Below, in pieces: positions 11,883-16,972 of a stretch of 21,812 nucleotides of DNA. Origin of the DNA: a virus; the UHGV virus genome UHGV-1651579. The stretch is one strand, 5' to 3'. Positions within the stretch are counted from its first letter, which is position 1. Every line of letters starts with the position of its first letter. The translations under genes were made by a program, and so were the position numbers. Below the pieces are notes generated by a model, which had not been told where the DNA came from, made no database searches, and saw nothing but the letters and a program-made list of their open reading frames with translations.

Positions 11883-12302
11883 ATGATGATGAAGAAAATT
11901 ATATTGCTGGGAATTGCCAGCGCTTTTGCTGTGAATGTCTACGCCAACAACACAGAGCAAGGTTTTAAAGAGACCGGCAGGGCAACCAGCTATGTTAAAT
12001 GCGCTCTTTATGCCGACATATCGAATATCTACACAGACAAATCCAGTGCAGTGCCTGCTGAAAATGCAAAACAGTTCAGAATTCTCGCGCTGAAGCACTG
12101 GAGAAAGGCAAATGAATTGCTTGGCAACGTTAAAACCGGAGATGATGAAATCGTCGACTTTGCCGTCTATCTATCATCTCAGGAATCAGTGGCCTGGGAC
12201 GCTCACCCTGAAATGAACAATTCGAATAATGACAGAGGCAATCCGGCAACTGCGGCATACATGAGCGAAAATTGCGGCTTATTGTTAGACGCCGCAAAGT
12301 AG
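11883..12302 (+). CDS. secreted hypothetical protein (139 aa)
   Basis: N-terminal signal peptide MMMKKIILLGIASAFAVNVYA; AT-rich by eye; followed by hairpin GGGGGC-ttt-GCCCC. Confidence 0.5.
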   Translation: MMMKKIILLGIASAFAVNVYANNTEQGFKETGRATSYVKCALYADISNIYTDKSSAVPAENAKQFRILALKHWRKANELLGNVKTGDDEIVDFAVYLSSQESVAWDAHPEMNNSNNDRGNPATAAYMSENCGLLLDAAK

Positions 12303-12327: not shown

Positions 12328-12906
12328 TTAATGATGTAAAGGCTGCATCTTTTGCGGCTGCGGCTGTTTGTTCAGGTCGTGGCGATGGGTCAGCTCGCGC
12401 ATCATGTCTTCAAGACGGCTCTTGGTGTCGTCAAGCTGGTCGGCCATTGCCCCCAACAGCTGGCGAAGGGCCATCGGATCGTCGCTGTTCAGCTCAGGCA
12501 TTTTGAACCCAGCCTGGGAAGACATCAGTTTGAAAGCGGCCAGCAACATCGCCAGAGAAGACTTCAGCCCGGCGATTTCACGATCTTTGCTGGCGTTGGT
12601 TTCATCTGCCTTGACTGAATCCGGTGAGCACTTCGGCTTGCTTACCATTTCCAGAGTTGCCTTAAGTTTGTCGGCGCGTTCTTTCTCTTCCAGATACGCT
12701 TCGCCGAAATGACGCGCCAGCATCACAATTTCAATCGGATCATCAATCATGCTTGAGAACTTGAGAACGCTGAAAAGGCGGTCAATAGGGGAGGCGTCGT
12801 CTTCGTGACCAACCACAAGACCCATGATCTCAACCAGTTCGGCCGCACCAACTTTTTTAATCACGCTTTCAACTTTGGCATTAGTTTTTTTGCATTTTTC
12901 ACACAT
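12328..12906 (-). CDS. hypothetical protein (192 aa)
   Basis: ATG at 12906 with AAGGAAG upstream; own cassette with P1 box. Confidence 0.55.
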   Translation of the reverse strand: MCEKCKKTNAKVESVIKKVGAAELVEIMGLVVGHEDDASPIDRLFSVLKFSSMIDDPIEIVMLARHFGEAYLEEKERADKLKATLEMVSKPKCSPDSVKADETNASKDREIAGLKSSLAMLLAAFKLMSSQAGFKMPELNSDDPMALRQLLGAMADQLDDTKSRLEDMMRELTHRHDLNKQPQPQKMQPLHH

Positions 12907-12940: not shown

Positions 12941-13114
12941 CTTAATTGTTTAATTGTCTCAAATTCTATGATGATGTGAAGAGTTGCATTAAGGCGAAAA
13001 GACACGCAAAAGGAAAAATCAGGCATACCAGACATTTATTTAAAGTGGCATTCATAGCAGAATGTTCTCATTGCCGAAGTTCTATTCAGACGTCAGTCCC
13101 TAAGAGAGAGCAAA

Positions 13115-14074
13115 ATGTTTGGTAATCTTTTCAAAACGGAAGAAACTAAGGCCCGGGAGGGCTTGGAGTCTCATTATCAGAAAGTCATGAGCTTCGTTGC
13201 TGAAAATGATCTACATGAAGCATGGGAAAAAACACGCAATATCATTTTTCGAAATATGGAAGTTAGAAGCTACATCACGCAAAACGGCGCGTTCGATCGT
13301 AACGATTTTTACTATAAGTCAGCCAAAGAGAAGCTTATTCAAAGCGCCTTCACTTCATACCTACTCATAAAAGTTTTACCTCAGTTCTATGAAATGCATC
13401 TCACCACTTTGAAAAGAAAAGAAAAAACACTCACAACACAGGATGAATACGGGGTCTGGAACTTTGACAAGTGGTTTGATGAAGTAGACTACTTTTATGA
13501 CAAGGTAGTAAAAGAGAAAGTTTACGATTGGATCGAAGAGAACACAGGCCGGCTCAACAACCTTTGGTTGGCAGAGTCGGAGGACAAGAATGCCTGGGGG
13601 CGGCCAGTTTACTTTAAATTCCAGTTGCCTGAACAATTTGATCGCTGCGCAATAAATCACATTATGACGGTGGTAGACAATACACCAGAACCTGAATTAC
13701 CTGAGTACACTTCGCTACTGACCGGGCACGAATATGAGCATTTTGTCGCTGGGGAGTTTATGAAGTATGGATCCGACACCCAAGTAACTAAGGGCAGCGG
13801 CGATCACGGTCTGGATATCCTTGTAACCTATAGAGAAGTTCGAATGGCTGTTCAGTGCAAACACTACCAGTCTAAAGTAGGCAACAAAGCTATTCAGGAA
13901 GCATTTTCCGCGAAACAGTTCTACGATTGCTCCCTCGCAATAGTAGTCAGCAACAGCGAGTTTACCCCTCACGCCAGACAAGCAGCCAAAAAACTGGACG
14001 TTTATCTGTATCACCATGAAGATATACACTTAATAATAGACGCCATTAATAATTGGCTGGATGCGCCGGAGTGA
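13115..14074 (+). CDS. two-domain protein: unknown N-terminal domain (about residues 1-195) + C-terminal Mrr-type PD-(D/E)xK restriction-endonuclease domain (319 aa)
   Basis: C-terminal block GHEYEHFVAGEF...KGSGDHGLDIL...AVQCKHY...IVVSNSEFTPHA matches Mrr catalytic-domain pattern (GxGDxGxD and VQCK); plus strand and AT-rich, unlike neighbours. Confidence 0.7.
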   Translation: MFGNLFKTEETKAREGLESHYQKVMSFVAENDLHEAWEKTRNIIFRNMEVRSYITQNGAFDRNDFYYKSAKEKLIQSAFTSYLLIKVLPQFYEMHLTTLKRKEKTLTTQDEYGVWNFDKWFDEVDYFYDKVVKEKVYDWIEENTGRLNNLWLAESEDKNAWGRPVYFKFQLPEQFDRCAINHIMTVVDNTPEPELPEYTSLLTGHEYEHFVAGEFMKYGSDTQVTKGSGDHGLDILVTYREVRMAVQCKHYQSKVGNKAIQEAFSAKQFYDCSLAIVVSNSEFTPHARQAAKKLDVYLYHHEDIHLIIDAINNWLDAPE

Positions 14075-14109
14075 AGATTGAGGGGCTAATGCCCCCCCCT
14101 ATTCGTCGG

Positions 14110-16585: not shown

Positions 16586-16972
16586 TTACGCTGCCTTTTT
16601 ACGTGGTCTCTTCTTCCTGACAACATTGGCAGGATCATAACCACCCAGCTTTTTCATCACCGCCAGCGGTATCTTGCTGATGGTGTGCCCAGCTTCCTGA
16701 CAGTAGCCACGGAAGATAAGCAACATGCTGCCACCAGGGTTGATGTTCACCTCCACCAGCCCAAGTTCAACATCCGGCTCAACGAACGCCACGCGGCCGC
16801 CAGACAAGATGACGGTTTCGTTGGCGCATTCAGCCGCACGCTCGTACCACTGCGTATCGAGGGATTGTGGTATCAGCATGACCGTCGTCACTCCACGCGC
16901 CTGCTCGCGAATGGCTGCGTCTATCCAGGGGGTGATTTTGGAGTAGGGCGGGTTGTCGCAAAAGCATCCCAA
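16586..16972 (-). pseudogene. 5'-truncated phage-type Dam-like N6-adenine methyltransferase fragment (C-terminal about 128 aa)
   Basis: begins at a TTG directly before CDNPPYS; upstream extension of the frame is not methyltransferase-like; AT-rich junction 16980-17160. Confidence 0.5.

What the first reader, a model, noticed from the sequence alone, without database searches (positions are those of the whole stretch)
13115..14074. AT-rich insert encoding an unknown N-terminal domain fused to an Mrr-type nuclease domain: candidate single-gene defence or exclusion factor
The 319-aa product has a C-terminal about 110 residues matching the Mrr catalytic PD-(D/E)xK pattern as I recall it (KGSGDHGLDIL around residues 226-237, AVQCKHY around 245-251, IVVSNSEFT around 275-283). 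The first about 195 residues match nothing I recognise and would be the specificity or sensor module. The gene is on the plus strand, visibly more AT-rich than its neighbours, lacks either cassette, and is divergent from the 192-aa gene at 12328-12906. That fits a recently acquired nuclease module. It could be a methylation-dependent restriction-like or abortive-infection nuclease, or a plasmid exclusion or addiction function. Function is inferred.
Basis: partly seen in the sequence, partly recalled or inferred. Interest (0 to 1): 0.75.

Follow-up and report, generated by a model that had tools for sequence, protein, structure and literature searches.

The report
Solitary Mrr-type nuclease on a phage-plasmid
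A real, well-conserved gene in a swap-prone slot of an SSU5-type phage-plasmid encodes an apparently active Mrr-type DNA-cutting domain behind an unstudied helical front half; it is most likely a one-gene defence or exclusion nuclease, but no experiment shows this yet.

Summary
The ORF (13115-14074, +, 319 aa) is real. dN/dS is about 0.1 in both halves. Residues 202-303 match Pfam Mrr_cat (E=2e-21), the catalytic residues are invariant, and the modelled fold matches PD-(D/E)xK nucleases.

The window is an SSU5/pHCM2-like phage-plasmid. The gene is a 1.15-kb single-gene cassette, antisense to the backbone, in a slot that elsewhere holds Ant/Rha, TciA/TciB-like genes or nothing.

It is rare: 6 of 5,426 complete E. 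coli genomes and about 2% of related plasmids. It is not recent. Four alleles (100, 83, 66 and 65% identity) occupy the same slot, and the flanking genes have diverged about as much.

Other homologs sit on an IncFII plasmid and on integrase-bounded E. coli islands, one type of which also carries PD-Lambda-2. No conserved partner gene or methyltransferase was found.

The N-terminal half has no Pfam, PDB or viral-structure match. Its core (residues 88-142, a "DDYG" helix-hairpin-helix) recurs in 391 protein clusters, and 115 of 124 scanned carry Mrr_cat. About two-thirds of these relatives have TM anchors instead of the helical bundle.

A defence or exclusion role is plausible but inferred. A test for incompatibility with the element's own adenine methyltransferase was negative.

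The parts
12957..14108 (+). Whole exchangeable cassette: 5' control region, nuclease ORF and 3' hairpin
   Evidence: Alignment with a Rha-carrying relative (pLAO18) and an empty-slot relative (pEC21Z137) loses homology at about 12957 and regains it at about 14108 (A3). No repeats flank the cassette.
13055..13072 (+). Conserved upstream element TAGCAGAATGTTCTCATT (consensus (C/T)AGAAT(A/G)TTC, partly palindromic); candidate -10 region or operator
   Evidence: Found 49-61 nt upstream of the ATG in 7 of 8 family loci from phage-plasmid, IncFII plasmid, genomic-island and chromosomal contexts whose upstream DNA is otherwise unalignable. The consensus promoter scan found no + strand site, so its function is inferred.
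13115..14074 (+). ORF, 319 aa plus stop: solitary Mrr-type nuclease
   Evidence: Annotated 'restriction endonuclease' (WP_089591471.1) in identical plasmid copies.
13115..13375 (+). Residues 1-87: conserved N-terminal peptide MFGNLFK (modelled as unstructured) followed by a family-specific helical bundle
   Evidence: AF2 pLDDT is 93-97 for residues 11-90, all helical. Mean pairwise identity is 0.75 for residues 1-12 and 0.50 for 13-87. No TM segment. No fold or sequence match.
13376..13540 (+). Residues 88-142: 'DDYG' helix / beta-hairpin / helix module (HLxTLKRKxxxLxxxDxYGxxxxxxWxxExxYF)
   Evidence: This is the only part of the N-terminal profile that hits widely: 391 representative clusters at E<=1e-3. 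115 of 124 scanned carry Mrr_cat. The spacing to the catalytic GDxGxD is 83-149 residues, median 99, and 119 here. L99, K102, L106, D110, Y112, G113, W120 and E123 are invariant.
13541..13699 (+). Residues 143-195: linker subdomain (short strands plus helix 175-189), ending in the PEPELPEY linker
   Evidence: AF2 secondary structure; mean identity 0.54.
13700..14014 (+). Residues 196-300: Mrr_cat PD-(D/E)xK nuclease domain with E208, D230, D234, Q247 and K249
14015..14071 (+). Residues 301-319: C-terminal helix, variable
   Evidence: AF2 helix 301-316; identity 0.49.
14082..14095 (.). GC-rich hairpin GGGGC-TAAT-GCCCC between the convergent nuclease gene and the 62-aa backbone gene
   Evidence: Read directly from the sequence. 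It lies inside the cassette-specific DNA. It was not called a canonical intrinsic terminator because there is no T-run.

Best explanation
The gene is a self-contained, moron-like cassette of an SSU5-type phage-plasmid. It encodes an active Mrr-type (PD-(D/E)xK) DNA endonuclease. The resident element expresses it to cut incoming foreign DNA, whether superinfecting phage or a competing plasmid, so it acts as a one-gene defence or exclusion factor. The C-terminal domain does the cutting. The conserved DDYG module is a built-in accessory of this Mrr_cat subfamily, perhaps for DNA contact, oligomerisation or autoinhibition. The fast-evolving helical bundle in front of it (where relatives have membrane anchors) sets where or when the nuclease acts. 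SHOWN: the gene is real and constrained; the nuclease fold and catalytic residues are intact; it is solitary; it sits in a variable cargo slot and on several kinds of mobile element; relatives share the DDYG-Mrr_cat core with interchangeable N-termini. INFERRED: nuclease activity in vivo, the target, the trigger, and the defence phenotype.
For: The nuclease domain and catalytic residues are intact. Both halves are under purifying selection with dN/dS about 0.1. The gene is always solitary: its neighbours differ across phage-plasmid, IncFII plasmid, integrase-bounded island, resolvase-adjacent and bacteriocin-locus contexts. It lies in a slot with alternative cargo (Ant/Rha, TerB+DUF3927, empty) and runs antisense to the backbone genes. 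It carries its own conserved 5' element in 7 of 8 loci. It is rare and patchy: 6 of 5,426 E. coli genomes and 7 of 318 related plasmids. The 70% homolog sits on mobile E. coli islands, one type of which also carries a complete PD-Lambda-2 system (B 3e-187, C 1e-157). Mrr_cat is a recurrent effector in defence systems, with domain-level PADLOC hits to ZorD, LmuA, PDC-S02 and mREase_IV. An Mrr_cat + 2-TM single protein, Epona, has reported anti-phage activity.
Against: There is no experimental data for this family. PADLOC matches only the nuclease domain, so no known system is recognised. TM-type relatives with the same DDYG-Mrr_cat core are syntenic, vertically inherited chromosomal genes between Ros/MucR and G6PD in about 38 Methylobacterium/Methylorubrum species. 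That is atypical for defence genes and allows a non-defence cellular role for the core. No DNA-recognition or trigger-sensing domain could be identified. How self DNA is spared is unknown.
Confidence: 0.5

Rival explanations
1. It is a Type IV (modification-dependent) restriction enzyze in the manner of E. coli Mrr. The N-terminal half would recognise modified DNA (methylated, hydroxymethylated or glucosylated bases) and the Mrr_cat domain would cut it. No methyltransferase is needed because the host's own DNA lacks the mark.
For: It has an Mrr_cat catalytic domain. No cognate methyltransferase is conserved next to it in any context. 88 of 124 wider relatives give domain-level hits to PADLOC mREase_IV models.
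Against: There is no Mrr_N-type winged helix or any recognisable DNA-binding domain in residues 1-195. The identical allele coexists with an intact phage N6-adenine methyltransferase in pYUXYEH3934-1 and pRHB17-C02_4, and with the DUF4942 methyltransferase in all carriers, so it tolerates at least those marks. About two-thirds of relatives replace the N-terminus with TM helices, which is hard to reconcile with a modified-base reader.
Confidence: 0.2
2. It is a spatially targeted nuclease that works like SNIPE. The variable N-terminus would place an otherwise autoinhibited nuclease at the site of DNA entry. Relatives would do this with a membrane anchor. This family would do it with a soluble adaptor that docks on a host or phage entry component. 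Only injected DNA would then be cut.
For: The architecture parallels SNIPE: a conserved C-terminal nuclease, a less conserved middle module, and a highly variable N-terminus. In 95 DDYG-Mrr_cat proteins the N-terminus has 0 TM in 34%, 1 TM in 38% and 2 TM in 25%. SNIPE homologues have 34%, 59% and 7%. The identity gradient here is nuclease 0.78 > DDYG 0.63 > bundle 0.50.
Against: This is analogy only. There is no DUF4041, no GIY-YIG domain and no TM segment in this protein. Nothing shows membrane or entry-site localisation. The TM counts come from a simple hydropathy rule, not a trained predictor.
Confidence: 0.15
3. It is not a defence gene. It would be a DNA-processing enzyme serving the element or the cell, such as a structure-specific or junction-resolving nuclease, a recombination helper, or a host-DNA degradase used in the lytic cycle.
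Against: Only about 2% of SSU5-like plasmids have it, and the slot holds unrelated cargo or nothing in the rest, so it is dispensable for the element. It is antisense to the backbone transcription units. All PD-(D/E)xK nucleases share the core fold, so the Hjc/NucS similarity is generic.
Confidence: 0.1
4. It is a toxin or addiction module that stabilises the phage-plasmid by killing cells that lose it.
For: It is a nuclease on a plasmid-like replicon. In the SNIPE study, removing the N-terminal anchor made that nuclease toxic, so an unregulated nuclease could act as a toxin.
Against: No small partner or antitoxin ORF is co-inherited. The cassette contains only this ORF, and both neighbours are backbone genes present in elements that lack it. 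Some homologs are chromosomal.
Confidence: 0.05

Closest known systems
E. coli Mrr and Mrr-family Type IV restriction endonucleases (Pfam Mrr_cat, PF04471)
   Same: Same catalytic domain family, with a strong HMM match, conserved E...GDxGxD...QxK residues and the PD-(D/E)xK fold. Both are solitary, with no cognate methyltransferase.
   Different: It lacks the N-terminal winged-helix (Mrr_N) DNA-binding domain. It has an unrelated ~195-residue helical region with the DDYG module instead. Modification dependence is untested, and the gene tolerates the element's own adenine methyltransferase.
Epona (single-gene anti-phage cassette of the Vibrio cholerae chromosomal integron; bioRxiv 10.1101/2024.07.02.601686)
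   Same: A single protein with a C-terminal Mrr_cat effector and a non-catalytic N-terminal part, carried as a small mobile cassette. Its description (Mrr_cat + 2 TM) matches the 2-TM branch of the DDYG-Mrr_cat family found here.
   Different: The window protein has no TM segment. Homology beyond the Mrr_cat domain, and presence of the DDYG module in Epona, are therefore untested.
SNIPE (TM - DUF4041 - GIY-YIG nuclease; Nature 2026, PMC13190303)
   Same: The functional logic may be the same: a one-protein nuclease with a conserved C-terminal cutter, a middle accessory domain, and a hypervariable N-terminus that is a TM anchor in most homologues and a soluble domain in about a third.
   Different: There is no sequence or fold relationship. 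The nuclease superfamily differs (GIY-YIG versus PD-(D/E)xK) and so does the middle domain (DUF4041 versus DDYG module). The mechanism is not demonstrated for any DDYG-Mrr_cat protein.
PADLOC candidate system PDC-S02, and the Mrr-like effector domains of ZorD (Zorya I) and LmuA (Lamassu)
   Same: They share the Mrr-like nuclease domain (PDC-S02 8e-11, ZorD 1.5e-15, LmuA 5e-5).
   Different: The matches cover only residues ~196-305 of the protein and only the C-terminal third of the PDC-S02 profile (190-297 of 334). The N-terminal half is unmatched, and there are no helicase, SMC or other partner genes.
Shedu (single-protein PD-(D/E)xK immune nuclease with diverse N-terminal sensor domains; bioRxiv 10.1101/2023.08.10.552793, abstract seen)
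   Same: The concept is the same: one polypeptide, a common nuclease core, and interchangeable N-terminal regulatory domains.
   Different: The nuclease subfamily differs (DUF4263 versus Mrr_cat), and there is no PADLOC Shedu hit.

Membership tests
Mrr_cat (PF04471) PD-(D/E)xK nuclease domain | Profile match above the curated threshold | tested here: met
   76.6 bits against a cutoff of 21, E=2.1e-21, residues 202-303, profile positions 4-110 of 115.
Mrr_cat (PF04471) PD-(D/E)xK nuclease domain | Catalytic acidic residues and (Q/E)xK lysine retained | tested here: met
   E208, D230, D234, Q247 and K249 are invariant in 11 sequences. The equivalent columns are at least 90% conserved in 124 wider relatives.
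Mrr_cat (PF04471) PD-(D/E)xK nuclease domain | Restriction-endonuclease-like alpha/beta fold | tested here: met
NA-iREase1 (PF22722), inactive restriction-endonuclease domain | Loss of catalytic residues | tested here: not met
   The weaker profile hit (3e-11) overlaps Mrr_cat, and the catalytic residues are all present and invariant.
E. coli Mrr-type Type IV restriction enzyme | N-terminal winged-helix (Mrr_N) DNA-binding domain | tested here: not met
E. coli Mrr-type Type IV restriction enzyme | Cleavage dependent on DNA modification | not testable with these tools
   Only a proxy was tested: the identical allele coexists with an intact phage N6-adenine methyltransferase in two plasmids.
Classical restriction-modification system (Type I/II/III) | Cognate methyltransferase co-inherited with the nuclease gene | tested here: not met
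   Neighbours differ in every context and none has an adjacent methyltransferase. The DUF4942 methyltransferase 1.4 kb upstream is a backbone gene also present in elements without the nuclease.
PADLOC PDC-S02 candidate defence system | Full-length match to the system's protein profile | tested here: not met
   Only profile positions 190-297 of 334 are matched, to residues 196-299.
Epona | Mrr_cat domain | tested here: met
   the Epona description is.
Epona | N-terminal holin-like region with two transmembrane helices | tested here: not met
   No hydrophobic 19-mer passes the Kyte-Doolittle 1.6 threshold in any member of the narrow family.
Epona | Sequence homology outside the nuclease domain | not testable with these tools
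   The sequence is not in the held text or supplement. There was no Vibrio hit in the genome scan or the profile search.
SNIPE | TM anchor + DUF4041 + GIY-YIG nuclease | tested here: not met
   None of the three features is present. The resemblance is architectural only.
Toxin-antitoxin / addiction module | Co-inherited partner (antitoxin) gene | tested here: not met
   The cassette 12957-14108 holds one ORF, and the flanking genes are backbone PHROG families present without it.
Phage 'moron' (autonomous accessory transcription unit in a prophage) | Variable presence between otherwise collinear relatives, and orientation independent of the flanking operon | tested here: met
   The gene is on + while the flanking backbone genes are on -.
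Phage 'moron' (autonomous accessory transcription unit in a prophage) | Own promoter and terminator | tested here: inconclusive
   A conserved 5' element is present in 7 of 8 loci and there is a 3' GC hairpin. The consensus scans called neither a + strand promoter nor a terminator.

The most novel reading that the evidence does not exclude
The DDYG-Mrr_cat proteins are a large, unrecognised family of one-protein nucleases: 391 representative clusters, and 253 relatives in species-representative genomes. In this reading their interchangeable N-termini (1-2 TM helices, Sel1 repeats, or the soluble helical bundle seen here) direct an autoinhibited PD-(D/E)xK nuclease to the place where foreign DNA enters the cell. 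That would be a convergent, Mrr-based counterpart of SNIPE. The phage-plasmid version would use its soluble adaptor domain and conserved MFGNLFK peptide to dock on a host or phage entry component, and so exclude rival phages.
Probability: 0.2. Interest if true: 0.7.

Novelty: new variant of a known kind. Interest (0 to 1): 0.45.

Why it matters
If the defence reading holds, this is a compact (about 1 kb, with its own control region) anti-phage or anti-plasmid gene. It is carried by SSU5/pHCM2-type phage-plasmids, which are common in clinical and livestock Enterobacteriaceae and already known as vehicles of resistance genes. It would affect phage-therapy host range and competition between mobile elements.

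More generally, the work defines an unmodelled ~55-residue module (DDYG helix-hairpin-helix). This module marks a widespread Mrr_cat subfamily with swappable N-termini. It gives a concrete, testable handle on how solitary nucleases without methyltransferases avoid cutting self DNA.

The syntenic Methylobacterium relatives also warn that not every member need be a defence gene.

Tried and rejected
1. Methyltransferase incompatibility (a proxy for Type IV behaviour). The window's phage N6-adenine methyltransferase is 5'-truncated, and pYLPI6a has a 1-bp G-run insertion in it, which suggested mutual exclusion. This is rejected: pYUXYEH3934-1 and pRHB17-C02_4 carry the identical nuclease allele with an intact methyltransferase, as do the Cronobacter and P0006 elements. 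The window's truncation is one end of an ~11-kb deletion.

2. Link to Epona. The sequence is not in the paper text or supplement. Cluster look-up of ten 2-TM relatives gave no Vibrio names. This is unresolved, not refuted.

4. Recent acquisition. Rejected.

5. Boundary repeats or att-like sites that would explain cassette exchange. None were found, so exchange is presumably by homologous recombination in the conserved flanks.

6. Phage DNA database. There is no nucleotide match to the cassette among 50,697 phage records, although the backbone matches SSU5 at 90%.

7. A sigma-70 promoter on the + strand upstream of the ORF. The consensus scan called none.

Full report
OBSERVATION. The ORF at 13115-14074 (+) exists as described: ATG start, 319 aa. 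Residues 202-303 match Pfam Mrr_cat (PF04471) at E=2.1e-21, 76.6 bits against a gathering score of 21. Weaker overlapping hits go to the related NA-iREase1, Mrr_cat_2 and RRG7 models. E208, D230, D234, Q247 and K249 are invariant in the 11 closest relatives, and the equivalent columns are at least 90% conserved in 124 more distant ones.

The AT-richness is real but modest. GC is 0.430 against 0.473 for the window, the 6th percentile of same-sized windows.

WHAT THE WINDOW IS. The flanks match about 318 PLSDB plasmids, almost all non-mobilizable IncFIB replicons of about 100-115 kb from Escherichia, Enterobacter, Klebsiella, Salmonella and Citrobacter. They also match Salmonella phage SSU5 at 90% identity. 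The window carries a Rep3-type RepA, an RNase H, a DUF4942 methyltransferase and an LprI-like gene. It is therefore an SSU5/pHCM2-type phage-plasmid.

Homology to every relative stops at 16954. The sequence from 16955 onward is the RepA region of the same backbone, which lies about 11 kb further away in relatives. This element therefore has an ~11-kb deletion that also truncates its Dam-like methyltransferase.

THE CASSETTE AND ITS SLOT. I aligned the window with a Rha-carrying relative and an empty-slot relative. Homology is lost at about 12957 and regained at about 14108. The exchangeable unit is thus 1.15 kb: 158 nt of upstream DNA, the ORF, and a GGGGC-TAAT-GCCCC hairpin. No repeats flank it.

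The same slot lies between the homolog of the 192-aa gene and the 62-aa/RNase H block. It holds an Ant/Rha gene in SSU5 and most E. coli elements, TciA/TciB-like TerB+DUF3927 genes in Klebsiella phage ST13-OXA48phi12.3 and phage Cyrano, or nothing. The nuclease gene runs antisense to the surrounding backbone genes. This is moron-like organisation.

A short element, (C/T)AGAAT(A/G)TTC (window 13055-13072), lies 49-61 nt upstream of the ATG in 7 of 8 family loci whose upstream DNA is otherwise unrelated. The gene evidently travels with its own control region. Whether that element is a -10 box or an operator is not established, and the consensus scan called no + strand promoter.

DISTRIBUTION AND AGE. 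The gene is rare. It occurs in 6 of 5,426 complete E. coli genomes, all on plasmids, in 7 of the roughly 318 related PLSDB plasmids plus one Cronobacter plasmid at 66% identity, and in 3 IMG/VR contigs. Only 8 full-length relatives appear among 5.8 billion protein clusters.

It is not a recent arrival. Alleles of 100, 83, 66 and 65% identity all occupy the same slot in SSU5-like elements. Between the E. coli and Cronobacter elements the immediate flanking genes are 59% and 58% identical and RNase H is 83% identical, against 66% for the nuclease. That is the pattern of co-divergence with the backbone, combined with frequent loss or replacement.

Other family members lie in four further settings. 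One (69%) is between repA and traX of an IncFII plasmid. One (70%) is on integrase-bounded E. coli islands with a DUF5906 primase and a resolvase, at two different chromosomal sites. One (37%) is next to a resolvase and a RecD2-like helicase. One (50%) is beside a cloacin/pyocin-S and lysis cluster. The only constant is the gene itself: no partner, no methyltransferase. One of the two E. coli island types also carries a complete PD-Lambda-2 system. From my own knowledge, that system was validated in the functional selection listed (PMC9519451).

An exhaustive HMMER search with the N-terminal profile against 1.84 billion representatives gave 391 hits. Only a handful cover the whole region. Almost all hit only profile positions ~85-136, the helix / beta-hairpin / helix HLxTLKRKxxxLxxxDxYGxxxxxxWxxExxYF. 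Of 124 such proteins scanned, 115 carry Mrr_cat. The module sits 83-149 residues (median 99, and 119 here) upstream of the catalytic GDxGxD, and it is occasionally repeated two or three times in tandem. No Pfam model covers it.

This 'DDYG module' is therefore a dedicated accessory of one Mrr_cat subfamily, not a free sensor domain. What varies is the part in front of it. Among 95 proteins with both motifs, a simple hydropathy rule finds 0 TM segments in 32, one in 36, two in 24 and three or four in 3. A few carry Sel1 repeats or other domains. The window's family has no TM segment. In its place is a soluble helical bundle preceded by a strongly conserved, unstructured MFGNLFK peptide. Within the family, mean pairwise identity is 0.78 for the nuclease, 0.63 for the DDYG module, 0.54 for the linker subdomain and 0.50 for the bundle.

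FUNCTION: WHAT IS SHOWN AND WHAT IS INFERRED. These points are shown. The gene is constrained and has an intact nuclease. It is solitary and carries its own 5' element. It sits in a cargo slot of a temperate element and on other mobile elements, including a defence island. It belongs to a wider family with interchangeable N-termini. The inference is that it cuts foreign DNA to the benefit of the resident element (confidence about 0.5).

Two published systems bear on this. Epona, from Vibrio cholerae integron cassettes, is described as Mrr_cat fused to two TM helices and has reported anti-phage activity. That description fits the 2-TM branch found here. I could not obtain its sequence or find a Vibrio member, so the link is untested.

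SNIPE is unrelated in sequence (TM, DUF4041, GIY-YIG). It is a membrane-anchored nuclease that cuts phage DNA during injection. Its homologues have a conserved nuclease, a less conserved middle domain and a hypervariable N-terminus with one TM in 59%, two in 7% and none in 34%. The parallel with the DDYG-Mrr_cat family suggests a testable mechanism, spatial targeting by the N-terminus, but it is analogy only.

CAUTIONS. PADLOC recognises only the nuclease domain (ZorD C-terminus, PDC-S02, LmuA), so no known system is identified. The TM-type relatives are also not confined to mobile DNA. In about 38 Methylobacterium/Methylorubrum species the gene sits at a fixed position downstream of a Ros/MucR regulator gene, and in about 22 of those loci a glucose-6-phosphate dehydrogenase gene lies on its other side. 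That is vertical inheritance, unusual for defence genes, and it leaves room for a cellular role of the core.

A specific Type IV idea was that the nuclease is incompatible with the element's own N6-adenine methyltransferase. Two independent lesions of that gene suggested it. It was tested and rejected, because identical nuclease alleles coexist with the intact methyltransferase.

VERDICT. The gene is already annotated generically as 'restriction endonuclease'. It is best filed as a new variant of a known kind: a solitary Mrr_cat nuclease with an orphan N-terminal adaptor and an undescribed but widespread DDYG module. Interest is moderate at 0.45. It is a good candidate for a cheap phenotypic test and a pointer to an unstudied nuclease family, but it is not categorically new and has no functional evidence.

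Noticed in passing
window 16586-16972 (-), junction at 16954/16955: The Dam-like phage N6-adenine methyltransferase is 5'-truncated. Homology to all relatives stops at 16954. The sequence from 16955 onward is the RepA region, which lies about 11 kb further on in relatives. This element is therefore an ~11-kb deletion derivative that has probably lost the exonuclease, AAA ATPase, DHFR and thymidylate synthase genes seen in pYLPI6a, and it may be defective as a phage.
   Followed up: partly
window 11883-12302 (+): A second antisense accessory gene (139 aa, signal-peptide-like N-terminus MMMKKIILLGIASAFAVNVYA, phrog_7437, no Pfam hit). It is present in some relatives (pLAO18, pEC21Z137) and absent from others (pYLPI6a, pRHB17-C02_4), so it looks like another moron next to the nuclease slot.
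   Followed up: partly
L018 7152-8264, L020 7151-8263, L022 7151-8263 (about 190 nt after the nuclease stop): IS421 is inserted at the same site immediately 3' of the nuclease gene in three carriers. Several carriers are 158-239 kb IncFIB+IncHI1B/MOBH cointegrates with rearranged right flanks.
   Followed up: no
L004 2487-5111 (also L006, L008): A complete PD-Lambda-2 system (HigB-like A, B at E=3e-187, C at E=1e-157) lies on the same integrase-bounded E. coli island as the 70% homolog. The island also has a DUF5906 primase and a serine resolvase. A sister island at another chromosomal site shares the primase-resolvase-nuclease-196aa-tRNA_anti-like block but not PD-Lambda-2.
   Followed up: partly
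L043-L102 (Methylobacterium/Methylorubrum loci), e.g. L068 4818-5675: TM-anchored DDYG-Mrr_cat homologs are syntenic across the genus, lying between a Ros/MucR regulator (38 loci) and glucose-6-phosphate dehydrogenase (22 loci). This is a vertically inherited chromosomal member of a family otherwise seen on mobile DNA.
   Followed up: partly
proteins P0016, P0017, P0020, P0024, P0027, P0053; L084: Some relatives carry the DDYG module two or three times in tandem with a period of about 85-90 residues, so it behaves as an independently folding repeatable unit.
   Followed up: no
window 13115-13135 (residues 1-7): The extreme N-terminal peptide MFGNLFK is conserved across the family down to 37% overall identity (MFNLFK in P0008), yet it is modelled as unstructured with lower pLDDT. 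It could be a short linear motif for partner or membrane binding.
   Followed up: no
window about 5000-6250: There is a strong local strand-composition anomaly: GC skew up to +0.40 and AT skew down to -0.40 over about 1 kb, unlike the rest of the window.
   Followed up: no
L001 about 12380 (pYLPI6a), A6 column 388: A 1-bp insertion in a G-run of the N6-adenine methyltransferase gene explains why no CDS is annotated there. It could be a true frameshift or a homopolymer sequencing error.
   Followed up: partly
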